From: Chiloscyllium plagiosum | Lineage: Eukaryota | DNA length: 20,000 bases | Assembly: GCF_004010195.1 (NCBI RefSeq) | Contig: NC_057719.1 | Span: forward strand, 9,911,791-9,931,790 | Reading direction: 5' to 3' | Shown here: piece after piece, positions 1 through 20,000 of the stretch | Layout: every line of letters starts with the position of its first letter | How positions within the stretch are numbered: the stretch's first letter is position 1 | The notes under the pieces: generated by a model | What the model was told of the DNA's origin: nothing | What the model saw: only the letters and a program-made list of their open reading frames with translations | The model's database searches: none | Position numbers and translations under genes: made by a program

Positions 1-37
1 TGATGTAGGTTTGCTTGCTGAGCTGGAAGGTTCATTT

Positions 38-77
38 CCAGACATTTCGTCACCATACTAGGTAACATCTTCAGTGG
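38..77 (-). ncRNA. Minimal type I hammerhead ribozyme motif (family A, left arm)
   Basis: Minus strand reads CCA-CUGAAGA-U-GUUACC(UAGUAU)GGUGAC-GAAA-UGUC-UGG: both core boxes intact, 6-bp stem II, stem I CCA/UGG, GUC triplet. Confidence 0.85.
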
Positions 78-252
78 GCCTCCAGGTGAAGCACTGCTAC
101 TGATTCCTACTTTCTATTTATATATCCCATCTACCACCCCCTGAGAAGAAGAACAGAAAATGATATCACCACAGGAAATGAAATCACCAACCCAAAGAAA
201 CCCAAAAATACAAACAGAAAGCAGGAATCAGTAGCAGTGCTTTGTCTGAGGC

Positions 253-292
253 CTGCTGAAGATGTTACCTAGCATGGTGACGAAACGTCTGG
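253..292 (+). ncRNA. Minimal type I hammerhead ribozyme motif (family A, right arm)
   Basis: CUGAAGA (256-262), U, GUUACC(UAGCAU)GGUGAC (264-281), GAAA (282-285), CGUC, UGG. Helix III is the palindrome ACGU. The 5' strand of stem I is mutated (CUG instead of CCA). Confidence 0.8.
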
Positions 293-303
293 AAATGAAC
301 CTT

Positions 304-396
304 TTTAGATTAGATTTTAGATTAGATTAGATTACAGTGTGGAAACCTCTGGCGCTGTGAGGCAGCAGTGCTAACCACTGTGCCACCGTGCCGCCA
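304..396 (-). mobile_element. Internally deleted HE1-type SINE
   Basis: The tRNA-like head (minus strand ggcggcacggtggcacagtggttagcactgctgcctcacagcgccagag) is joined directly to the LINE-like tail and (AATCT)n. TSD AACCTT at 298-303 and 397-402. Confidence 0.85.
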
Positions 397-509
397 AACC
401 TTCTAGCTCAGTGAGCAAACCTACATCCAGAACATCAACCTGAGCTACAAATCTTCTCAAAACTGAGGTGTAACAAGTGTTTTGTATGAGTTCAAAAGAT
501 TTCTGTGCT

Positions 510-1396: not shown

Positions 1397-1497
1397 CTTC
1401 TCAGAGATGTTATTACATACATCTAGAGATCAGTGGGCACATGAACCCAACCTTCCTGCTCCAGAGGTAGAGACATTACTACTATGCCACAAGAGCC
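1397..1497 (-). mobile_element. tRNA-derived SINE head fragment
   Basis: Minus strand has an A-box-like tggcatagtag and a B-box-like ggttcatgtgccc with tRNA spacing. No intact cloverleaf. Confidence 0.55.
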
Positions 1498-1590
1498 CAT
1501 GATTTGGAGACACCTGGGTTGGACTGGGGTGTACAAAGTTAAAAAAAATCACACAACACCAGGTTATAGTCCAACGGGTTCATTTGGAAG

Positions 1591-1625
1591 CACTAGCTTT
1601 CAGAGCGCTGCTCCTTCATCAGATG
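1591..1625 (-). ncRNA. Minimal type I hammerhead ribozyme motif (family C, left arm)
   Basis: CAU-CUGAUGA-A-GGAGC(AGC)GCUCU-GAAA-GCUA-GUG. Core intact, helix III palindrome AGCU, CUA triplet, G-U pairs at two positions. Confidence 0.85.
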
Positions 1626-1636
1626 GTTGTGACAAT

Positions 1637-1671
1637 CACCTGACGAAGGAGCGGCGCTCCAAAAGCTAGTG
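1637..1671 (+). ncRNA. Minimal hammerhead motif with a core mutation (family C, right arm)
   Basis: CAC-CUGACGA-A-GGAGC(GGC)GCUCC-AAAA-GCUA-GUG. Stems are perfect, but GAAA is mutated to AAAA. Confidence 0.75.
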
Positions 1672-1797
1672 CTTCCAAATGAACCCATTGGACTATAACC
1701 TGGTGTTGTGTCATTTTTAACAAGAGCCCATGTTGAGGTTAACACTCCATTCACCAGCTTCAGCTGACACTGTGTGGACTACTGTAATTCATATAAA

Positions 1798-2954: not shown

Positions 2955-3053
2955 TTGTCGAGAGTGTGATGCTGGAAAAGCACAGCAGGTCAGACAGCAT
3001 CCGAGGAGCGGAAGAATCAATATTTCGGGCAAAAGCCTTTCATCAGAGCTTGG
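2955..3053 (-). mobile_element. Single-arm copy of hammerhead mini-element family B
   Basis: Homologous to 6794-6969 and 10298-10469. Minus strand at about 3016-3046 reads CUGAUGA-A-AGGC(UUUU)GCCC-GAAA-UAUU-GA. Possible 9-bp TSD TTCAGTTCC (2946-2954 and 3054-3062). Confidence 0.8.
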
Positions 3054-3605: not shown

Positions 3606-3734
3606 AAAAGAGTCACATCAGATTCAAACTGTGAACTGTGTTTCTTTCCCCATAGATGCTTCCAGATCTGCTGAGTTTTCCCAGCATGTTCTGTTTTTAT
3701 TTCAGATCTCCAGCATCTGCAGGTTTTCAATTTT
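3606..3734 (+). mobile_element. Old repeat family E (related to family B, decayed hammerhead at the 5' end)
   Basis: gatgcttccagatctgctg...ccagca...gatctccagcatctgcag matches the family B arm. It is preceded by a GAGTC...GATTC stem remnant. Confidence 0.6.
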
Positions 3735-4375: not shown

Positions 4376-4474
4376 AAATCAGAAACAGAAATTGCTGGAG
4401 AGACTCAGTAGGTCTCACAGAATCGGTAGAGAAAGCACAGCAAATAATTTGAGTCCAGCAACTCTCCTTCAGAA
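4376..4474 (-). mobile_element. Family E repeat with a decayed hammerhead
   Basis: Minus strand reads tt-CTGAAGG-A-GAGTT(GCTG)GACTC-AAAT... followed by the family E body. Confidence 0.6.
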
Positions 4475-6054: not shown

Positions 6055-7008
6055 GTCAGTCATAGAGTCATAGAGATGTACAGCATGGAAACAGACCCTT
6101 CAGTCCAACATGTCCATGCCGATCAGATATCCCAACCCAATCTAGTCCCACCTGCCAGCACCCAGCACATATCCCTCCAAACCTTTCCTATTCATATACT
6201 CATCCAAATGCCTTTTAAATGTTGCAATTGTACCAGCCTCCACCACTTCCTCTGGCAGCTCATTCCATACCTGTACCACCCTCTGTGTGAAAAAGTTGCC
6301 CCTTAGGTCTCTTTTATATCTTTCCCCTCTCACCCTAAACCTATGCCCTCTAGTTCTGGACTCCCCCATCCCAGGGAAAAGACTTTGTCTATTTACCCTA
6401 TCCATGCTCCTCATAATTTTATAAACCTCTATAAGGTCACCCCTCAGCCTCCAATGCTCCAGGAAAAACAGCCCCAGCCTGTTCAGCCTCTCCCCATAGT
6501 TCAAATCCTCCAACCCTGGCAACATCCTTGTAAATCTTTTCCGAACCCTTTCAAGTTTCTCAACATCTTTCTGATAGGAAGGAGACCAGAACTGCACACA
6601 ATATTCCAACAGTGGCCTAACCAATGTCCTGTATGGCCGCAACATGACCTCCCAACTCATGTACTCAATACTCTGACTAATAAAAGAAAGCATACCAAAC
6701 GCCTTCTTCACTATCCTACCTACCTGTGACTCCACTTTCAAAGACCTGTTAACCTGCACGCCAAGATCTCTTTGTTCAGCAACACTCTATAGGCAAAAGT
6801 GAGGACTGCAGATGCTGGAAACCACAGTTTAGATCATTATGTTGCTGGAAAAGCACAGCAGGTCAGGCAGCATCCGAGGAGCAGGATAATCGACGTTCCG
6901 GGCAAAAGCCCGATTCCTGATGAAGGGCTTTTGCCCAAAATGTCGATTTTCCTGCTCCTCAGATGCAATCAACACTCTATAGGACCTTACCATTAAGTGT
7001 ATAAGTAC
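6055..7008 (-). mobile_element. CR1/HER1-type LINE, 5'-truncated and relatively young, interrupted at 6794-6969
   Basis: Open 205-aa ORF (6142-6759) with LVRPLLEYCVQFWSP, RLRGDLIEVYKI, RTRGH and FFTQRVVQVWNELP motifs. (CTCTATGA)n 3' tail near 6060-6075. Confidence 0.95.
6794..6969. mobile_element. Palindromic hammerhead mini-element (family B)
   Basis: Perfect 14-bp TSD CAACACTCTATAGG (6780-6793 and 6970-6983). Inverted arms at about 6870-6911 and 6925-6966. Plus strand reads CUGAUGA(6917-6923)-A-GGGC(UUUU)GCCC-AAAA-UGUC-GA. Confidence 0.9.
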
Positions 7009-7719
7009 TGCGGAGTCCCTTCTTTTTATGTAAAAATATTCTTAGTTCTCCATTGTAAGTTGACCTCTGACATTTGGACCAACATCCTTAATTTTTCACA
7101 TACTTTGTACTGGTTTTGGCAGGAATAGCCTTTCTCCCCCGCCTCACAATTGCTCCTTTTTGAAATTGTCATCTGAAATAGATCACTGGACAGCTCTCCT
7201 GGCTGAATTCAGCACCATGACCAGCGACCACCAAGGCTTCATCATTATCGGCAGTTCCCAAAACCCGGTTGAATTTAAACTCCTTGGGAATGTAGCTCAG
7301 GCATTAGTTAACTAACAATTTGGTTTTGAAAACTCAGCTTTTACATGCGTATATATTAGTTGGGTCATACAATAATACATGAAATAATTAGATGAAGTCC
7401 TCATGTTGAACATAGCAGTGGCGAAGAAAAGGTTGAACTCTCTGAAAGTTATCTTTATTTTAAATTAATGAGTATGGTGTCGATGCAAAGCGATAGTACA
7501 CACTTTTCACTGTATTTTACATTGAATACGTGTGACAATAAATAATTCAATGAATTCGAATGGATCACCTGAGGAAATTGTCCAGCAATAATCCATTGTA
7601 ACTTCAATACACAGAGCAGAAATAAAGAGGATCTGCATTTATACAGCACCTTTCACAACACTGGTTGCTTGATGCCTACAATATGCATATTAATGCATAA
7701 AACAGGTGAGATGCTGATC

Positions 7720-8680
7720 ATTCAGCCCCTTCTCAAATTGCTCCCCCCTCCCCAGCCCGCGCAGTTCTGGACACATCCACGAGTGGAATAATTCTTTCCA
7801 GGTTCACCTCATCAAGATTATTCACCACTGACTCTTCTAAACTCCAGTGGAATTACAGCCCAGCCAGTCCACCCTATCCTCATAAGGTAACTCCCTTGCT
7901 CCAAGTACTAATCGAGTAAATTTCCTCTGAACTGCATGTGACACATTTACATACTGCTTTAGATAACCAGACCAAAACTACACAGAGTACTCATGATGTG
8001 GTCTCTCTTATATCCTATATAACTGAAGCATTTCACATCCTTTGTTTTCTGTTCAATTCCCCTCATAAGAAAGCAAGGCATCCCATTAGACTGCTTGATT
8101 ACATTCTGTACCTTTATATTAACATTTTCTGATATGGAGCACCTAAATCCCTCTGCACCTCGGTTTTCCACAGTTCATCTCTGTTTTCCCCAGCTGCCAG
8201 ATCTTTGACCACTAACTCAACCTACCTTCTTCATCAAGTACTTTCCTACCTGAGTGGCACAGTGGCTAAGTGGTTAGCACTATTGCCTCAAAGCACCAGG
8301 GACCTGGGTTCGATTCCAGCCTTGGGCAACTGTCTGTGTGGTGTCTGCATGTTCTCCCCGTGCCTGTGTGGGTTTCCTCTGCGTGCTCCAGTTTCCTCCC
8401 ACAGTCACAAAGATGTGCAGGCCATGTCAAGTTGCCCACAGTGTTCAGGTGCATTAGTCAGGGGTAAATGTAGAGTAATAAGGGAGGGGAATGGGTCTGG
8501 GTGGGATACCCCTTGGAGGGTCAGTATGGACTTGTTGGGCAGAAGAGACTGTTTCCGCACTGTAGTGATTCTACCTAGCTTTGTGTCATCTGGAAATCTC
8601 ACTACTGAGCTTTAATGCCCCTCAGCTAATTCATCAATGGGATTTGTTAAAAATCTGTGGCCTCAGCATAGACCTTTGCT
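7720..8680 (-). mobile_element. Old fragmented CR1-type LINE, interrupted by HE1 at 8252-8570
   Basis: Minus strand shows RFPDDTKLG (degenerate FADDTKLG RT motif) near 8575-8600, plus downstream ORF2-like remnants. Confidence 0.7.
8252..8570 (+). mobile_element. HE1-type V-SINE, near full length
   Basis: A box tggctaagtgg, B box ggttcgattcc, core and tail. TSD CTACCT (8246-8251 and 8571-8576). Confidence 0.92.
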
Positions 8681-8764
8681 GCATGATAGGACACACAGGA
8701 CAAACTTGTGGAGAACAAGCTCCACTTAACCTCAATGTAAGAATGACTTGATAATCTGCTATGG

Positions 8765-9166
8765 GATGTTGTCTGAGGAATAATTGGCCTGAACACCAGG
8801 GAGTACTCCATTACTATTCTTTAAAGTTGTACCGCATGGTCTTTATTTTCGCCTGCCTGAGATGGTAGCTGTCTCCGCTGAAAGATGCAGAAAGTATAGA
8901 GGGGATGTCAGAGGCGAGTTCCTTACGCAGAGAGTTGTGAGAGCATGGAATATGTTGCCAGCAGCAGTTGTGGAAGCGAGGTCATTGGGGATATTTAAGA
9001 GACTGCTGGACATGCATATGGTCAGAGAAATTTGAGGGTTCGTACATTAGGTTTACCTTACATGAGGATCAATGGTCGGCACAACATCGTGGGCTGAAGA
9101 GCCTGTTCTGTGCTGTACTGTTCTATGTTACCTTCAACAGTCCAGCACTCCATCAGCACTGCACTC
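8765..9166 (-). mobile_element. Ancient DeuSINE/SacSINE1-like fragment split by a CR1 3' end
   Basis: 8765-8889 (ttggcctgaacaccagggagtactcc...gaaagatgc) continues at 9130-9166 (accttcaacagtccagcactccatcagcactgcact). It resembles my recollection of the shark SacSINE1 consensus and has not been verified by search. Confidence 0.45.
8890..9128 (+). mobile_element. CR1-type LINE 3' end
   Basis: FLTQRVVRAWNMLP motif followed by a 3' UTR ending gcctgttctgtgctgtactgttctatgtt. Confidence 0.85.
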
Positions 9167-9220
9167 ACATGTTAGCAAAACCGCTAACTGAATCCCAACG
9201 CCTACTCTCCATCTACCTTC

Positions 9221-9735
9221 AGGAGTGTGATGGAATTCTCTCCACCTGCCTGGGTGGGTCTAGCTCCAATAACACTCAAGAATCTTGACACCATCCAGAA
9301 CAAAGCAGCCCACACTTGATTGGCACCGCATCCATATGCATCCATTCCCTGAACCACTGGTGCTCAGTAGCAGCAGTGTGTACCATCTACAAGATGGACT
9401 GCAGAAAGTCATCAAAGCTTCTTAGTCAGTGCCTTCCAAACCCCATGACCACTTCCATTGAGAGGAACAAGGGCAGAAATGCTTGGGAACATCAGCACCC
9501 GCCAATTCCCCTCCAAGCCACTCGCCATTTTGACTTGGAAATATACCACTGCTCCATCACTGTTGCTGGGTTAAAGTCCTGGAACATACTCATGAACAAC
9601 ATTGTGTGTGCATACCTACATGGCATAGACTGAAGTGGTTCAAAAAGGCAGCTCACCATCACCTTCTCAAGAACAACTAGGGACGGGCAATAAATACTAG
9701 CTCAGTCAGCGACATCCATATCCCAACAGCGAGTG
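9221..9735 (+). mobile_element. 3' part of the second LINE family (L2/Crack-like)
   Basis: Translates as SVMEFSPPAWVGLAPITLKNLDTIQNKAA / IHSLNHWCSVAAVCTIYKM, a LINE ORF2 C-terminus. Further copies at about 4185, 18400 and 18670. Confidence 0.75.
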
Positions 9736-10297
9736 ATAATAATTAATTCTACAGAATGTTTTAACTTGCAACATATCTACCCTGCCACAAGATGGCAAAC
9801 TTGACCAGCTTGAAACTGAGAAGGTCAATATGATATTTTGTATTGTTGTCAAGTATACTCTCATTTTGAAAACAATATTGAAGCAACAAAGTGGAAAGTG
9901 AACAATCTTGAAGACACCATAATTCTTGTTCTGGCTGAATAGAAGGACAAAATGTCAGACTGAGCCCCAGTGAGATCTGACTCAACATTTTTTTTTCGCT
10001 GCATCGTTCCTTCAGCTGTTTATTTTTCTCCTTTCAATGATGTGGCTATTCAGCAGTGATCCTCAGACAAGGCACCAAAAACTATCAAACAATATGATTG
10101 AACTTGAATAAAGAAATCCTAATTATGGATCACCTTGATAACTGGAGATTGTAACACTGCAACTACTAGCCCATGAAATTAGAGTCACCGAGTCCGACAG
10201 GACAGAGACAGGCCCTTTGGCCCCAACTGGTCCATGCTGACCAAAATGTCCATTCACACTAACCCCACTTCCCTGCACTTGGCCCATATCCTTCTAA

Positions 10298-10469
10298 GAC
10301 GAGAGTGGGGCACTGGAAAAGCACAGCAGGTTAGGCAGCATCCGAGGAGCAGGAAAATCGACGTTTTGGGCAAAAGCCCTTCAGCTCCTCGGATGCTGCC
10401 TGACCTGTTGTGCTTTTCCAGCACCACACTCTCGACTCTGATCTCCAGCATCTGCAGTCCTCACTTTCT
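10298..10469. mobile_element. Palindromic mini-element family B with the centre deleted
   Basis: Perfect 14-bp TSD CCATATCCTTCTAA (10284-10297 and 10470-10483). Inverted arms at about 10300-10350 and 10384-10434. Hammerhead stem II and ACGUC remain, but the CUGAUGA box is truncated. Confidence 0.9.
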
Positions 10470-10510
10470 CCATATCCTTCTAAATCTTTCCTGTCCGTAT
10501 TTTTGTCCAA

Positions 10511-10857
10511 ATGCTTTTTGAATGGTGTTAATGTACCCACCTCAACCACTTCCGCTGGTAGCTCATCCCATTTGCAAACCTGCCCCCCAGGTTCCCTTTT
10601 ATTCTTTCCCCTCTCACCTTAAACTGATGCCCTCTAGTCCTCGATTCCCCAACCCTGGGAAAAAGATTGAGTGATGCTTTTTGAATGGTGTTAATGTACC
10701 CACCTCAACCACTTTCGCTGGTAGCTCATCCCATTTGCAAAGCACCTTCTGTGTAAAAAAAGGCTGCCCCCCAGGTTCCCTTTTATTCTTTCCCCTCTCA
10801 CCTTAAACTGATGCCCTCTAGTCCTCGATTCCCCAACCCTGGGAAAAAGATTGAGTG
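10511..10857 (+). repeat. Tandem duplication (10511-10673, 163 bp; 10674-10857, 184 bp)
   Basis: The copies are identical apart from one substitution (ttccgc/tttcgc) and a net 21-bp deletion in the first copy. Confidence 0.95.
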
Positions 10858-11019
10858 CATTCACTCTATCTGTGCCTCTCAGGATCTAATACACCTGAGA
10901 TCCTCCCTCAGTCTCCTACGCTCTAAAGAAAAAAGTCCCAATGTGTCCAGCCTCTCCCTGTAACTCAGTTCCTTAAGTCCTGACAACGTCCCTGTGAAAT
11001 TCTTCATCACCTTAATGCC

Positions 11020-11510
11020 ATATGACCATCAGAAATGTGAACAGGAGTAGGCCATGTGGTCCCTTCAGCCCGCTTCACTATTCAATAAAACATGGCTGAT
11101 CCAATATTCCTCACATCTGCGTTCCTGCCATAACTCTTGATTGCTCGACAGACCAAGAATCTATCTCAGCCTTTCATATACGCAATGACTTTGATCACAT
11201 GCTTTCTGTGGCAAGGAATTCTAAAGACTTGCAAACCTCAGAGAGAATAAACTCCTCCTCATCTCAGTCTTAATTGACCCCCCTCCTTTTAAGATGGGCC
11301 TATGCCATCTGGTCCCAGACTCTCCCACGAGGGGAAACATTCCCTCGATATCTACCCTGTCAAGCCCGTTACGATTCCTGGATGTTTCAATAAACCTTCT
11401 CTCATCTTCGCAATTCTAATCAGTAGAGTCCAACCTGTTTAACCTTTGCTCATAAGACAATCCCTCCATACCGTGGATCATCCTAGTGAACCTTCTCTGA
11501 ACTACCTCCA
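11020..11510 (-). mobile_element. Old CR1-type LINE 3' fragment
   Basis: Reverse-complement similarity to 14455-15130 and 15716-16150. Confidence 0.8.
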
Positions 11511-11552
11511 ACCTGAGGTCGTCGATTTGTTTGCCGAGCTTATGCATTTTTC

Positions 11553-11594
11553 TGCAGACATTTCATCACCTTACTAGGTGACATCGTCAGTGCA
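11553..11594 (-). ncRNA. Minimal type I hammerhead ribozyme motif (family D, left arm)
   Basis: UGCA-CUGACGA-U-GUCACC(UAGUAA)GGUGAU-GAAA-UGUC-UGCA. Core intact, 4-bp stem I. Confidence 0.85.
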
Positions 11595-11679
11595 TCTTTG
11601 ATAAGATGTTGGTGGTCTGGCCTCCCCAGTATCACGTGTCTCTGTTTGTCGGTACTTCCCGTTCTGTGTCTGCGTGGTT

Positions 11680-11839
11680 TTATATGGTTTTGAGTTCAGT
11701 GGGTTCATCGATTGAGTTTGAGTTGGAATGCCAGGCTTCAAGGAATTGTCTGGTGTGTCTCTGTGTTGCCTGTACTAGGATTGGTTACATTGTCCCAGTT
11801 GAATCCGTGTCCTTTGTTGTCTATGTGGTTGGAAATGAG
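11680..11839 (-). pseudogene. Penelope-type GIY-YIG endonuclease C-terminal remnant (frameshifted)
   Basis: Manual translation gives LISNHIDNKGHGFNWDNVT, a 1-nt insertion, then ILVQATQRHTRQFLEAWHSNSNSIDEPTELKTI. This matches the H...GH.F.W....IL......R.FLEAWHS...SIN pattern of Penelope/Poseidon ORFs. Confidence 0.85.
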
Positions 11840-11871
11840 AATGTACTGGTCCACCAACACGTTATCGAAGA

Positions 11872-11913
11872 TGCACTGATGATGTCACCTAGCGAGGCAA
11901 CAAAACATCTGCA
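11872..11913 (+). ncRNA. Decayed hammerhead motif (family D, right arm)
   Basis: UGCA-CUGAUGA-U-GUCACC(UAGCGA)GGCAAC-AAAA-CAUC-UGCA. GAAA is mutated to AAAA and stem II has mismatches. Confidence 0.7.
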
Positions 11914-12175
11914 GAAAAACACACCAGGTCAACGACTCTATGACCTCATCCACAACCCCAGCTACAAATCCTCTCAAAATCTCCTAAATACTCCAACCTG
12001 TTGACTTTCACTCAATGGGTTTGGTTTTGGGGAAGAAGAATTAATAACAAAGCCTAGTGAAGAAGGCCTTCTTATCTTCTCCAATTGGCTTTTTCACTCA
12101 AGCTGAGTCTGGCTGTGCTCTGACGTCTTTCTGGGTCCACAGAATGATGGAGCGGGGTGGGTGGCCACTCATGGT

Positions 12176-12890
12176 GTCATAGAGTCAAATAGTGTGGAAT
12201 CAGACCCTTCGGTCTAACCAGTCCATGCCAATCACGTTCCCAAAGTAAACTAGTCCCGCCTGCCTGCACCTGGCCCATATCCCTCCAAACCTTTCCTCTT
12301 CAAATGTTCTGTCCAAATATCTTTTAAACATTTCAAGTGTAACTGCACCCACATCCACCACTTCCTCTGAAAGTTCATTCCACACAAGAGCCACTCAGTG
12401 TAAAAAACATTGCCCTTCATGTCCTTTTCAAATCTTCCTCTTCTCACCTGAAAAATACGCCTGCTAGTTTTGAACGCCCCCCACCCTAAGAAAAAGATCC
12501 GTCATTCACCTTATCTATGCTTCCCCATAATTTCATAAGCCTCTATAAGTTACCCCTCAACCTCCCGTATTCCAGCCTTTCCAGTCTACTTTTATATCCC
12601 AAACCTTCCATTCCCCGCAACATCCTGGTAAATCTTTTCAGAACGCTCTTCCTGTTTAATAATATCCTTCCTACAGCAGGGTGACCAGAACTGCACACAG
12701 TACTCCAGAAGAGGCCTCACCAATGTGCTGTACAACCTCAACATGCCATTCCAACTGCTATACTCAAAGGTCCTGAACTTAAAGCTACGAAGGCAAGTGC
12801 ACTAAACACCTTCTTAACCACCCTGCCTACCCACGGCGCAAGTTCAAAGAGTTATGCACCTGAACCCCTAGGTCTGTCTGTTCTACAGGA
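12176..12890 (-). mobile_element. CR1/HER1-type LINE 3' fragment
   Basis: Colinear with 6055-6790 (VWNELSEEVVDVG, KGLEGYGPGAGRRD), frameshifted. Confidence 0.9.
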
Positions 12891-13036
12891 CCTTTACAAA
12901 GTGCCCTACTCATGTGTTCGTTCCCCTTGAGAATTTGGATTCAAGAATGCGGCCAAACACCTTTTTACAAGTTATAACCTGTCAGGCTATGAAATCCTTG
13001 ATCATAACAAGTCTCTGTTTGGGTGTATATTTTAAA

Positions 13037-13350
13037 GGTGGCACAATGGCTCAGTGGTTAGCACTGCTGTCTCACAGCACCAGGAACAAAGGTTCAATTC
13101 CAGACTCAGGCTTCTGTGGGGAGTTTGCACGTTCTCCCTGTGTCTGCGTAGGTTTCCACCAGTTTCCTCCCACAATCCAAAGATGTGCAGGTTAGGTGAA
13201 TTGGCCAAGGTAAATTGCCCATAGTGTTCAGGGATATGTAGGTTAGGATAATAGGGGAGGGGAATGGGTCTGGGTAGGGTACTCTTCGGATGGGTCAGTC
13301 TGGACTTGTTGGGCTGAAGGGTCTGGTTCCACAGTGTAGGACTTCTATGA
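13037..13350 (+). mobile_element. HE1-type V-SINE
   Basis: A box tggctcagtgg, B box ggttcaattcc, core, tail ending ttctatga. Confidence 0.92.
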
Positions 13351-14449
13351 CGTGAAAGAAAACAGACATTTAAAATATCATGCTGTACTGAAGTGCCATT
13401 TGTGAATATGCCCCCGAAAGCTCCCTTAACCAGCAGAGATGGAACCCAGTTCAGGGAAAAGGGCAACTGAGGAGCAAAAATGAACATTTTTACTGTCGCT
13501 TGTTTACCAGGCAAGGGAACTAAACTGAAAATTCCATCACTTTCTTAACACTGCACTTCCAGTAATTATATACGGAAAATGGATCTGCAATTATCCTGCA
13601 CTAATTTGCAATGAGAGTTACGTTACTGTGAATCCCACACGGTGCAGGCTAGTTGGATAATATTCGAAACAGAGCTGTAAGTGCAAGGTCTTTCAGATGC
13701 ATTTTGACTGCGGTTCAATAAAGAATTAACGGCAGGTTACATTATTAATTCACACTGCCCTGAGTCAACTGTTATATAATAGAGGCCACCAAGTTAAATG
13801 TCAGTATGAGGGACAAGGCAAAAATCTGCTACATCATGTCAAGGAGATGCAATTTCATATATATAATCTGCCATGTAGCTGAAGGCAAAAGATCACATTC
13901 AAACTGGAAGATTCTTCGATTGCTTTGGTGGGTCCTTCTAATTACACACACAAATAAAATCCACAGATAATACCCTGCAGCGAGCAGCTGCCTCAGAATG
14001 ATGTGAAGTCATCTCACTAGAATACACATTGCTTGACTGGCTCTGCTCAGTAATATACTGGCTGCCTTTCTTATCAGTGTTTGATCACAGAACGTTGCCT
14101 GTATATGTCACGCAGCAGAGATTATTGCCCGAAAGCCATCGTAAAGCACAGGCTTAAGGGTGACCACAGCACAGTAAAATTCTATTCCTTAACCCTTGTA
14201 ACATCAGCAGAGCTGTCAATATTGCAGGGAGCCAAGGTGAGATATCACCAGCCGCTTGTCGTAAACATGAGGATGCAGCCTAGTACCAGAATCGCAAACG
14301 TAGGTCCAAGTGACAAACAGGAAATAAATCATCGTGGCTACTGGGTATTGGAATTTGCCAGGATGGCAATGACAGTGGAGAGCGTGTGAGAATGAGAAGA
14401 GACTGATGACATTTTGGGTCAATCGCAGAAGGGCTACTCTTTGGGAACA

Positions 14450-15130
14450 TATTCTAGCATTGGAGGCAGTCCAGAGCAGGTTCACTGGGCTGATACCAGG
14501 TATGGAGGGATTGTCTCATGAGGAGATGCTGAGTAGATTGGGCCTGTACCCATTGGAGTGTCTGAAAATGAGAGGTGACTTGGTTGAAACACACAAAGCT
14601 CTTAAAGGATAGTTTCTTCCTCTTGTGAGAGACTTTAGGAAGAGAGGGGCATAATCTCAGAATAATAGATTGTCCATTTAAGACAGAGATGAGGAGGAAT
14701 GTCTTCTCTCAGAGGGGAGTGAATCCAAGGATTCTTTACCACATAGAGCTGTCAAGGCAGGGTCATTATGTATATTCATTATGCATATGAGGTAGACAGA
14801 TTTTTAATCAGTAGGAAAGTTGAGTTGAGGTTGATTAGAGTCAAGAATGTGGTGCTGGACAAGCACAGCAGGTCAAGCAGCATTCAAGGAGCAGGCAAAT
14901 CAACATTTCGGGCATAAACCCTTCATCAGGAATTCCAAAACTTTAATTCTCCTGCTTCTTAGATGCTTCCTGACCTGCTATGCTTTTCCAGCACCACACT
15001 CCCGACTCTGATTTCCAGCATCTGCAGTCCTCACTTTCTCCTCCGTGAGGTTGATCAGATCAGTCATGATCTCATTGAATGGAGGGGCTGACTTGATGGG
15101 CTGAATGGCCTGCTTCTGTTCGTATGTCTC
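14450..15130 (+). mobile_element. Old CR1-type LINE 3' fragment interrupted by family B
   Basis: ALEAVQSRFTGLIPGMEGLSHEEMLSRLGLYPLE..MRGDLVETHK, followed by a 3' UTR. Confidence 0.88.
14836..15045. mobile_element. Palindromic hammerhead mini-element (family B)
   Basis: TSD TGAGGTTGAT (14826-14835 and 15046-15055), extendable to 14 bp with one mismatch. Minus strand at about 14899-14932 reads UUC-CUGAUGA-A-GGGU(UUAU)GCCC-GAAA-UGUU-GA. The right arm lacks the core. Confidence 0.9.
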
Positions 15131-15268: not shown

Positions 15269-15635
15269 TGTGAAGAAAGTTTATGGACTTGAATTGTTCA
15301 CTCTGTTTCCCACTCCACAGATGCTGCCTAATGTGGTGTGTGGTTGCAGAATTTTTTGTTTCTATTTCAAATTCCTGAGATCCGCAATATTTTAATTCTG
15401 GGACATTTAAAATCTCCAACCTTCTACCCTCGAAATGACCTTCCCTTTTCCTTCTTTCCTCCCTCCTGCCACTCATTCTTCCAGGATTTAAAAAAAACAA
15501 AATCGCTGGACAGCGATTAAATCTCTAACGTTTTCCAGTTCTCAAGAAAGGTCATTAACATGAAATGTTAACTCTGGATCTCCCTCCCATAGATTCTGCC
15601 AGACCTTACCAGCTACGTATTTCCAGCATTTTCTC
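15269..15635 (+). mobile_element. Two decayed family E repeats (about 15269-15395 and 15538-15635)
   Basis: The second copy begins GTT-CTCAAGA-AAGGTCATTAACAT-GAAA-TGTT-AAC (hammerhead scaffold, stem I GTT/AAC). Both continue with the actctg...agatgctgcc-type body. Confidence 0.55.
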
Positions 15636-15715: not shown

Positions 15716-16875
15716 CAGGATGGGTTGTCTTCTGAGGATAGGTTCTGTGGGTAGGGCGTGTCCTTTTGGAACATTGAAAGACGAGAGGAGTCCTCATTGA
15801 AACATACAAGATATTCGGGGATTTGAAAGGGTAGATATGGAGAGGTTGTTTCCCTTGTGGGAGAGTCTAGGAGCATAGGCATATTACAAGAATAAGAGGT
15901 GCCCACTTAAGACAGAGATAAGAGGAATTTCTTCTCTCAAAGAGCAGACAATCTGTGGAATTCTTTACCACAGTGAGCCATAGAAGCTAGGACATTTAGT
16001 ATTTTCAAGGCTGAGACAGACAGAACTTTATTCAGTAAGGGAATCAAAGGTTATGGGGAAAAGAAAAGTGGAGCTGAGGATTATCACATTGGCCATTTCT
16101 CATTGAATGGGGGACTAGGCTCGATGGACTGAATGGTCTACTTCTGCTCCGACACCCGATGCTTAATTTCAGAGAATGTGGAATGCCTGATGACAGGGAG
16201 CCATTAAAGAAGGAAACCTGATGAACACGTAGGACGAATGCATATTTTGGAGGTATAGCTGATTTCCCCACCTTTTCCATCTTGGGACCTGTTAAATGGC
16301 CATGGGACAATCGCTACTCCATCTGTCTCAAGCAGTTCCACCTGTAATAGAAATCTAGTGGCACAGTAGGTAACGTTTCTGTCTCTGAGCCAGGAGCTCG
16401 GTTTCAAATCCCACTCCAAGACTTGATGACCAAAGAAGGTGGGTCATCATAAGGAACCGGAATAGGCCCCCTGGACTTCCTCCACCATTCAATAGGATCA
16501 TGGCTGATCTTACACTCCTCAGATCTACTTTCCTGCCCTTTCCCCAGAACCATCGATTCCCCATGACATGACATAAGAGCCTGAGTATCACCCAAAGGTA
16601 AATCCTTCCATTACACAGAGTGGTAAAGAATTCCACAGATTGTCTGCTCTTTGAGAGAAGAAATTCCTCTTATCTCTGCCTTAAGTGGGCACCTCTTATT
16701 CTTGTAATATGCCTATGCTCCTAGACTCTCCCACAAGAGAAACAACCTCTCCATATCTACCCTTTCAAATCCCCGAATATCTTGTATGTTTCAATGAGGA
16801 CTCCTCTCGTCTTTCAATGTTCCAAAAGGACACGCCCTACCCACAGTACCTATCCTCAGAAGACAACCCATCCTG
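15716..16875. repeat. Inverted repeat with 256-bp arms (15716-15971 and 16620-16875) within two facing CR1-type LINE 3' relics (15716-16150 on +, 16450-16875 on -)
   Basis: I count 3 mismatches in 256 bp by eye, with a 648-bp spacer. The ORF track gives near-identical peptides on opposite strands. Confidence 0.95.
16355..16425 (+). mobile_element. tRNA-derived SINE head fragment
   Basis: A-box-like tggcacagtagg and B-box-like gtttcaaatccc. Confidence 0.5.
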
Positions 16876-19002: not shown

Positions 19003-19318
19003 TGTTGTGAAGGGATAGGTGTGTACTGTACCTTTAAGAGAGACTGGAAGCTGGCACGGACTTAGAGAGGCACAAAGACTGCTGAACAAATTTAAAATAT
19101 TACATTTGACTGTGAACCCAATAGTGCAGATGAATTGTCATGATACAAAAACAAATTCAAATTCGGCCAGTTTAAATTATGTCCCAGATACCAAAATCCA
19201 ATCAAATTTGATTTTAGCATTTTGACAACATCAAACCAATGAAATGATCCAATATTTTGGGGGTATAAAACCAGATATTTTGAAAAGTTAGGGGAAGAAC
19301 TGCCAAGAAAACCAACAA
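19003..19318 (+). mobile_element. Possible truncated LTR (U3-like)
   Basis: Begins with TGT where the LINE homology breaks. CCAAT at 19118, 19198, 19236 and 19249, TATAAAA at 19264. Cut by a CR1 segment at about 19319. Confidence 0.4.
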
Positions 19319-20000
19319 GTTTGGAGACATGGTTAGAGCAGGGACAGGAATGGTTGTTGCAGGTTCCAGGATTTAGATGTTTTAGTAAGAACAGAGAAGA
19401 TGGTAAAAGAGGGGGAGGCATGGCATTGTTGGTCAAGGACAGTATTACAGTTGCAGAAAGGATATTTGGGGACTCGTCAATTGAGGTAGTATGGGCTGAA
19501 GTTAGAAACAGGAAAGGAGAGGTCACCCTGTTGGGAGTGTTTTATAGGCCTCCGAATAGTTCCAGAGATCTAGAGGAAAGGATAGCAAAGATGATTGTCG
19601 ATAGAAGTGAGAGAGACAGGGTAGTTGTCATGGGGGACTTCAACTTTCCAAATATTGACTGGAAACACTATAGTACGTGTTTTTGTCCAGTGTGTGCAGG
19701 AGGGCTTCCTGACACAGTATGTAGACCAACAGGGGTGAGGCCACATTAGATTTGGTACTGGGTAATGAGCCCAGCCAGGTGTTAGACTTGGACGTAAGTG
19801 AGCAATTTGGTGATCGCGATCACAATTCTGTTATGTTTACTTTAGTGATAGAAAGGGATAGGTGCATACCACTGGGCAAGAGTTACAGCTGGGGGAAAGG
19901 CAATTACGATGCAATTAGGCAAGATTTAGGAAGCATAGGATGGGGAAGGAAACTGCAGGGGATGGGCACATTAGAACTGTGGAGCTAATTCAAGGAAAAG
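19319..20000 (+). mobile_element. CR1-type LINE ORF2 apurinic-like endonuclease region, disrupted, running off the window
   Basis: ETWL, RGGGMALLVK, YRPPN, VVMGDFNFPNIDW, LDLVLGNEP and DHNSV motifs, with deletion or frameshifts near 19675-19750. Confidence 0.95.

What the first reader, a model, noticed from the sequence alone, without database searches (positions are those of the whole stretch)
6780..15059. Family B: three independent insertions with about 14-bp TSDs, one fixed end and one variable end
Seen: TSDs are CAACACTCTATAGG (14), CCATATCCTTCTAA (14) and TGAGGTTGAT[t/c]AGA (10-14). Each copy has one complete end (...ccagcatctgcagtcctcacttt) while the other arm stops at a different point, and the centre is deleted differently each time. 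Inference: this asymmetry does not fit cut-and-paste MITEs. It suggests target-primed reverse transcription from a defined 3' end, with the inverted arm created at each insertion by fold-back or a second priming event. At 14833-14839 the target overlaps the element's own gatcaga, which hints at microhomology-guided joining.
Basis: partly seen in the sequence, partly recalled or inferred. Interest (0 to 1): 0.72.

Follow-up and report, generated by a model that had tools for sequence, protein, structure and literature searches.

The report
Shark Penelope-element mirror-image end insertions
The three short mirror-image insertions are stubs of a Penelope-like jumping gene in a shark-type genome, laid down in a pattern already described for this class, so they are real but mostly ordinary.

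Summary
The insertions and their target-site duplications (TSDs) are real: 14, 14 and 10 exact bases, the last 13 of 14. The 'variable end' is mostly wrong. The short arms of copies 2 and 3 and of an unlisted fourth copy (2957) stop at the same base, 31-35 nt before the complete end; only copy 1 differs. The arms sit head to head, and their inner ends carry a minimal hammerhead-ribozyme motif. Two inverted terminal repeats, a 30-40-nt 'tail' on one end only and a TSD are the published anatomy of Penelope-like element (PLE) insertions. The tail is explained in vitro by two reverse-transcription start sites. Two other window families share the anatomy. More than 114,000 contigs align in each of three related organisms. 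Retrotransposition by target priming is therefore well supported and a MITE is unlikely. Fold-back versus two primings stays open, and no coding gene was linked to family B. The scan has reported this pattern before on other pieces of this genome. Verdict: new member of a known kind.

The parts
6780..6793 (+). Copy 1 left TSD (14 nt)
6794..6911 (-). Copy 1 arm with tail (complete end outward at 6794); second subfamily with a 3-nt longer variant segment; inner end cut inside hammerhead stem II
6912..6966 (+). Copy 1 short arm: starts 5 nt before the hammerhead core (6917; G of GAAA mutated), stops about 40 nt before the usual short site, then 3 unmatched bases
6970..6983 (+). Copy 1 right TSD
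10284..10297 (+). Copy 2 left TSD (14 nt)
10298..10383 (-). Copy 2 tail-less arm; outer end at the shared short site; inner end cut inside the hammerhead core
10384..10469 (+). Copy 2 arm with tail (tail 10437-10469; the element's next two letters coincide with the start of the TSD)
10470..10483 (+). Copy 2 right TSD
14826..14839 (+). Copy 3 left TSD (14 nt, one mismatch); last 7 nt resemble the element's continuation into the tail
14840..14936 (-). Copy 3 tail-less arm; outer end at the shared short site; hammerhead core CTGATGA..GAAA intact at 14929, downstream palindrome mutated
14937..15045 (+). Copy 3 arm with tail, starting inside stem II; about 3-4 unmatched bases before the TSD
15046..15059 (+). 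Copy 3 right TSD
2957..3046 (-). Fourth family-B copy (solo tail-less arm ending at the shared short site; hammerhead core at 3046); no convincing TSD
1489..1732 (.). Family C: unrelated sequence, same anatomy (13-nt TSD at 1489/1720, head-to-head arms 1544-1630/1632-1718, about 42-nt tail on the left only, hammerhead cores at 1622 and 1640)
11506..12000 (.). Family D: same anatomy (TSD 10 nt exact at 11506/11991, arms 11514-11615/11851-11948, about 40-nt tail on the right only) with a frameshifted coding remnant at 11683-11869 (-) whose nearest named cluster is GIY-YIG (lead only)

Best explanation
Family B copies are 5'-truncated insertions of the terminal module (pseudo-LTR with minimal type I hammerhead, plus tail) of an endonuclease-bearing Penelope-like retrotransposon. 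Shown: head-to-head arms with the element's 3' ends outward, one end at the tail terminus, the other usually at a second site 31-35 nt inside it, a 13-14-nt TSD and a copy-specific centre. Inferred: the element's RT-GIY-YIG protein nicks the two target strands 13-14 nt apart; the 3' ends prime reverse transcription at the element's two preferred start sites; the two truncated products are joined at whatever point each had reached near the hammerhead; gap filling makes the TSD. Each copy is thus built at insertion. About 0.9 for PLE origin; within that, about even between two primings and one priming followed by fold-back or strand switching.
For: The hammerhead descriptor gives 8 matches in the window against a mean of 0.6 (maximum 3) in 200 shuffles; 7 of the 8 lie in the four mirror families. 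Loose-end consensus letters from contigs spell the intact core, the bulged base, a G-C first pair of stem II and the CG palindrome, the features listed for PLE min-HHRs. Three of 4 short arms share one end. The tail end is the largest loose-end pile shown: 2289, 2821 and 3046 contigs in X1, X10 and X15. Piles near the short site exist: 479 at 10313 in X10, 492 and 588 at 10427 in X1 and X15, 601 at 10430 in X1. Literature: inverted pLTR, 31-bp tail at one end and 8-10-bp TSD, mostly head to head, in rotifer PLEs; a 30-40-bp tail at only one end; two RT start sites bounding the tail, both target strands cut and extended, predicted dimer; opposite-strand min-HHR pairs 100-700 bp apart in schistosome. 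Families C and D repeat the anatomy. In copy 2's fold the short site lies in a loop region closed by a long-range stem, though the fold is not significant (z -1.70, 13 of 200 shuffles as good).
Against: No RT or GIY-YIG gene was linked to family B. Searches with its one open frame returned a single hit, an unrelated host gene model. Pfam found 0 families in 3 coding remnants of families D and A, and the Atlas GIY-YIG rows (0.85, 0.78) are leads only. Copy 1's short arm ends at neither site. Arms within a copy are not more alike than arms between copies. The TSDs (13-14) are longer than the 8-10 bp reported in rotifer. No window copy keeps a fully intact ribozyme. One search shows only 18 of 1575 loose-end rows and 15 of 638 joint rows, counts contigs rather than copies, and did not measure TSDs.
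Confidence: 0.85

Rival explanations
1. A fixed palindromic non-autonomous master (two arms already joined at the centre) is copied by PLE machinery, and the centres are lost afterwards because long palindromes are unstable.
For: Copy 1's sense arm and copy 3's antisense arm reach about the same inner point, 5-7 nt upstream of the hammerhead core, and copy 3's centre holds an 8-nt palindrome. No window copy goes further upstream. Family C's arms meet with a 1-nt gap.
Against: At the inner end, 1153, 1269 and 1298 contigs run on into sequence unlike the stretch rather than into a mirror arm, and head-to-tail and tail-to-tail joints also occur. Family D has unequal arms around a coding remnant. 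A sense RNA of a head-to-head palindrome has only one sense arm to prime from (inference).
Confidence: 0.08
2. DNA-transposon MITE with terminal inverted repeats and later deletions.
For: Copies are short, non-coding, inverted and TSD-flanked, and very numerous.
Against: The two ends differ by a 31-35-nt tail in a reproducible way, so they are not equal transposase-binding ends. The tail is on the left in copy 1 and family C and on the right in copies 2, 3 and family D. TSDs of 13-14 nt exceed those of most cut-and-paste superfamilies (recalled). The hammerhead motif and the many arms without a mirror are unexplained.
Confidence: 0.03
3. A non-LTR retrozyme: a small hammerhead RNA that is self-cleaved, circularised and reinserted by PLE enzymes.
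For: Type I hammerhead; head-to-tail joints (10471 back to 10384) in 7, 7 and 11 contigs. Animal retrozymes derive from PLE pLTRs and occur in one sampled cartilaginous fish.
Against: The window copies are inverted pairs or solo arms, not tandem arrays. Their inner ends lie at or upstream of the ribozyme core or well downstream of it, not at the predicted cut site.
Confidence: 0.04

Closest known systems
Insertion units of EN+ Penelope-like elements with inverted pLTR and tail (Arkhipova et al. 2013, PMC3846280; Craig et al. 2021, PMC8557442)
   Same: Head-to-head inverted terminal repeats, a 30-40-nt tail at one end only, TSD, 5' truncation, palindromes or overlap at the inverted junction.
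   Different: Here both arms are only 55-120 nt with no coding body; TSD 13-14 nt against 8-10 bp in rotifer; very high abundance.
Poseidon PAc of Anolis carolinensis (Frangieh et al. 2024, PMC11167929)
   Same: Two preferred 3' ends bounding a tail; hammerhead upstream in the pLTR; little or no target homology needed at the start site.
   Different: The main text I read does not treat inverted insertions or TSD length; family B has no demonstrated ORF and its clade is undetermined; the three targets here are not obviously AT-rich.
Minimal hammerheads (min-HHR) of metazoan PLEs (Cervera and de la Pena 2014, PMC4209133)
   Same: Core boxes, one unpaired base before stem II, G-C first pair, palindromic positions 15.2-16.2, solo and opposite-strand pairs.
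   Different: Stem II is 4 bp, against 7-8 in schistosome; 'shark' does not occur in that paper's main text; activity untested.
L1 twin priming (recalled, not read here)
   Same: Both target nicks prime cDNA, giving an inversion inside a TSD.
   Different: In L1 the two pieces come from non-overlapping parts of one RNA; here both arms copy the same segment, which needs two templates, re-use of one, or copying of the first cDNA.
Animal non-LTR retrozymes (bioRxiv 10.64898/2026.07.22.740005)
   Same: Non-coding, pLTR-derived, type I hammerhead.
   Different: Defined as tandem arrays with a hammerhead per unit; the window copies are inverted or solo.

Membership tests
EN+ Penelope-like element | Telomerase-like RT plus GIY-YIG endonuclease ORF joined to this terminal repeat | tested here: inconclusive
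   No ORF in the copies; two protein searches gave one unrelated gene model; no genome and no loci. Neighbour family D has a GIY-YIG-like remnant, lead only.
EN+ Penelope-like element | Inverted truncated pLTR next to the insertion, head to head | tested here: met
   3 of 3 listed copies; families C and D.
EN+ Penelope-like element | 30-40-nt tail at one end only | tested here: met
   31-35 nt in copies 2 and 3; about 42 and 40 nt in families C and D. Copy 1 has the tail but a shorter second arm.
EN+ Penelope-like element | Target-site duplication | tested here: met
   14, 14 and 13 of 14; target single in host paralogues for 2 of 3 copies.
EN+ Penelope-like element | Minimal type I hammerhead in the pLTR | tested here: met
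   Motif at 6917, 14929, 3046; intact letters in the contig consensus. Rfam lists no hammerhead among its 13 matches.
min-HHR ribozyme | Self-cleavage as a dimer | not testable with these tools
   Needs an in vitro assay.
MITE (TIR DNA transposon) | Two equal terminal inverted repeats reaching both ends | tested here: not met
   0 of 3 copies; ends differ by the tail.
MITE (TIR DNA transposon) | Short TSD of fixed length or sequence | tested here: inconclusive
   Length near-constant at 14 in three copies, sequences unrelated; genome-wide lengths not measured.
Non-LTR retrozyme | Tandem units each with a complete hammerhead | tested here: not met
   No tandem unit of this family in the window; a few head-to-tail joints exist elsewhere.

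The most novel reading that the evidence does not exclude
These stubs record a two-ended priming reaction: a dimeric PLE protein leaves 13-14-nt 3' overhangs and primes one cDNA from each, at the tail site and at the tail-less site, on two separate RNA templates that begin just upstream of the hammerhead. Some copies should then be chimeras with arms from different subfamilies. With two subfamilies that differ in a diagnostic segment and well over 100,000 aligning contigs per run, this genome would let the open question of how PLE inverted repeats form (fold-back on an antisense template versus two primings) be settled by counting.
Probability: 0.4. Interest if true: 0.55.

Novelty: new member of a known kind. 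Interest (0 to 1): 0.27.

Why it matters
The copies themselves are dead, abundant repeats of a described kind. Their value is as a dataset. How PLEs make inverted repeats and tails is still called undefined, and here the two ends, the stagger and the centre can be read from very many insertions. They should be annotated as PLE ends rather than MITEs or microRNA hairpins (Rfam microRNA matches are all below threshold).

Tried and rejected
No own genome was available, so TSDs and breakpoints could not be tabulated per copy. Pattern scans found 0 loci in genome contigs, viral contigs and metagenome contigs. Rfam gave 13 matches, all below gathering scores, none a hammerhead; the microRNA matches reflect the palindrome. 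Pfam: 0 families in 3 short remnants. The protein search with family D's 43-aa piece found no candidate. Family B's open frame hit only one gene model in both protein searches, so the idea that it is a PLE ORF start is unproven; the second subfamily has a stop in that frame (seen in the sequence of copy 1). Single-strand folds of 7 pieces were not better than shuffles (z -0.03 to -1.70). RNA: no RNA holder of note was listed, and 0 of 8,328,510 reads of run X22 (about 6% of the run) were laid, which the tool calls no test. A 9-nt repeat around the fourth copy was rejected as a TSD because its right copy lies inside a SINE-like sequence (SINE identity recalled). Orthologous empty sites could not be told from paralogous ones, because the flanks are repeats; joints skipping 10298-10501 appear in 1, 7 and 5 contigs. 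The arm-within-copy test was negative and has little power. Paper searches for this family's motifs found 0 papers. Searches for shark PLE mirror insertions or for twin priming in PLEs listed none on that subject by title or abstract start; subscription papers and Repbase are outside the library.
Full report
Setting. No genome is held for the window. The window is about 34-50% GC and packed with interspersed repeats. It looks like cartilaginous-fish DNA: the only protein hit to a family-B arm is a gene model that its source names as from a bamboo shark. My labels LINE and SINE for the host repeats are recalled and come from no call.

Observation. The three TSDs are at the stated places: 14 nt exact (6780/6970), 14 nt exact (10284/10470), and 10 nt exact extending to 13 of 14 (14826/15046). 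Only 10 of 5000 random zone pairs in this window reach 14 nt, real repeats included. For copies 2 and 3, the host sequence with the element and one TSD copy removed aligns with no gap at the target to two paralogous host repeats each, so the target was single before insertion. For copy 1 and family C this test was inconclusive. Each copy is a head-to-head inverted pair with a different centre.

The main correction. With all seven arms aligned in one orientation, the short arms of copy 2 (10298), copy 3 (14840) and a fourth, solo copy (2957) end at the same base, 31-35 nt before the complete end (the register is also visible, family D1). Only copy 1's right arm stops elsewhere. Copy 3 looked variable only because its TSD ends in letters that match the element's continuation. 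That overlap is real (7 of 7 in the right TSD copy) and could have helped priming, but the other two junctions at that base have 0 and 1 nt. At the tail ends the element's next letters overlap the target by about 4 nt (copy 1), 2 nt (copy 2) and 0-1 nt (copy 3), read.

Hammerhead. The inner part of each arm carries CTGATGA, one unpaired base, a 4-bp stem II and GAAAC-GTC. A descriptor finds 8 such motifs in the window against a mean of 0.6 and a maximum of 3 in 200 dinucleotide shuffles; 7 of the 8 belong to four mirror-image families. The window's B copies are all damaged, but the loose-end consensus of other genomic copies spells the intact motif. These are the features given for PLE minimal hammerheads (PMC4209133, passages and section 5). 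Rfam did not detect them.

Other copies. I laid three DNA contig sets (organisms A, B, C; 3 of 24 listed runs) and one RNA run on 10170-10570 at 85% likeness. 114,355, 117,067 and 125,662 contigs aligned; this is not a copy number. The largest loose-end pile shown is the tail end (2289, 2821, 3046 contigs). Piles near the short site appear too (479 in X10; 492 and 588 for a second subfamily, to which copy 1 belongs, in X1 and X15; 601 in X1). At the inner end 1153, 1269 and 1298 contigs continue about 6 nt past the hammerhead core and then disagree, so many arms have no adjacent mirror. Head-to-tail and opposite-strand joints also occur. Limits: 18 of 1575 loose-end rows and 15 of 638 joint rows were shown, some counts were dropped for X1 and X15, and TSDs could not be read. 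The RNA run gave no test.

Neighbours. Family C (1489-1732) has a 13-nt TSD, head-to-head arms and a tail of about 42 nt on one side. Family D (11506-12000) has a TSD of at least 10 nt, a tail of about 40 nt on one side, and a frameshifted coding remnant. For both pieces of that remnant the nearest Atlas cluster with a family is GIY-YIG, at 0.85 and 0.78, which the tool calls a lead only; Pfam gave nothing. Family A (1 to about 460) is a fourth mirror family, cut by the window edge.

What is known. PMC3846280 (passages and Discussion) describes an inverted pLTR, a 31-bp tail on one of the inverted pLTRs, 8-10-bp TSDs and mostly head-to-head arrangement, and proposes self-priming on an antisense template. 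PMC8557442 (passages) gives the same scheme and calls the cycle undefined. PMC11167929 (parts 1-2 of 4: abstract, main text, start of Methods) shows in vitro that both target strands are cut and extended, that reverse transcription starts at two sites bounding the tail, and that target homology is not needed; a dimer is predicted. PMC8969392 and PMC9033089 (passages) repeat the general scheme. The retrozyme preprint (part 1 of 5 and passages) covers tandem forms. I read no supplements; they may hold shark hammerhead or PLE consensus sequences. Seven searches listed no paper on this shark family.

Mechanism. In copies 2 and 3 the top strand continues from the left TSD into antisense element sequence at the short site, and the bottom strand continues from the right TSD into antisense sequence at the tail end. 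That is the geometry expected if both 3' ends of a 14-nt staggered cut primed cDNA on sense RNA, with the two products joined near the hammerhead (inference). One priming followed by fold-back gives the same picture. Copy 1's second arm stops before the subfamily-diagnostic segment, so it is uninformative.

Against the reading. No ORF is tied to family B; copy 1 has an unexplained short end; TSDs are longer than the rotifer values; the shared inner limit keeps a palindromic-master model alive at low odds.

Earlier scan notes. A look-up by sequence found nothing. Look-ups by words and place, made after my reading was recorded, returned several notes on other pieces of this genome with the same conclusion. 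They are unchecked AI notes and are not counted as support.

Verdict. Real, well explained by known PLE biology, new member of a known kind; interest 0.27. The residual value is a countable test of how PLE inverted repeats form.

Noticed in passing
window 1489-1732: Family C: second hammerhead mirror insertion, 13-nt TSD, tail on the left only, arms 91% complementary with a 1-nt gap.
   Followed up: yes
window 11506-12000: Family D: hammerhead mirror insertion around a frameshifted GIY-YIG-like coding remnant, tail on the right only.
   Followed up: partly
window 1-460: Family A: hammerhead mirror insertion cut by the window edge; its right arm is interrupted at about 303-396 by a short SINE-like fragment (label recalled).
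   Followed up: partly
window 15716-15986 and 16605-16875: A 271-nt inverted repeat, 97% complementary, 618 nt apart, inside LINE-like sequence; far more alike than other repeat copies, suggesting a recent inverted duplication or gene conversion.
   Followed up: no
window 10511-10857: Near-identical local duplications (68 nt at 99%, 94 nt at 100%; spacings 163 and 184) in the host repeat just right of copy 2; could be a recent duplication or an assembly artefact.
   Followed up: no
window 3655-3722: An older relative of family B's 3' end and tail, without the hammerhead part; weaker look-alikes near 15313-15350 and 4390-4430.
   Followed up: partly
P0001 residues 285-311: A bamboo-shark gene model (PDZ domains) ends in sequence translated from a family-B arm: exonisation or a gene-prediction error.
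   Followed up: no
joints to 10471: Contigs join the short end of one arm to the tail end of another on the opposite strand (10, 21 and 12 contigs in X1 at three positions; similar in X10 and X15), a tail-to-tail arrangement not seen in the window.
   Followed up: no
window about 19300-20000: Purine-rich stretch that resembles the endonuclease region of a CR1-type LINE (recalled, not tested).
   Followed up: no
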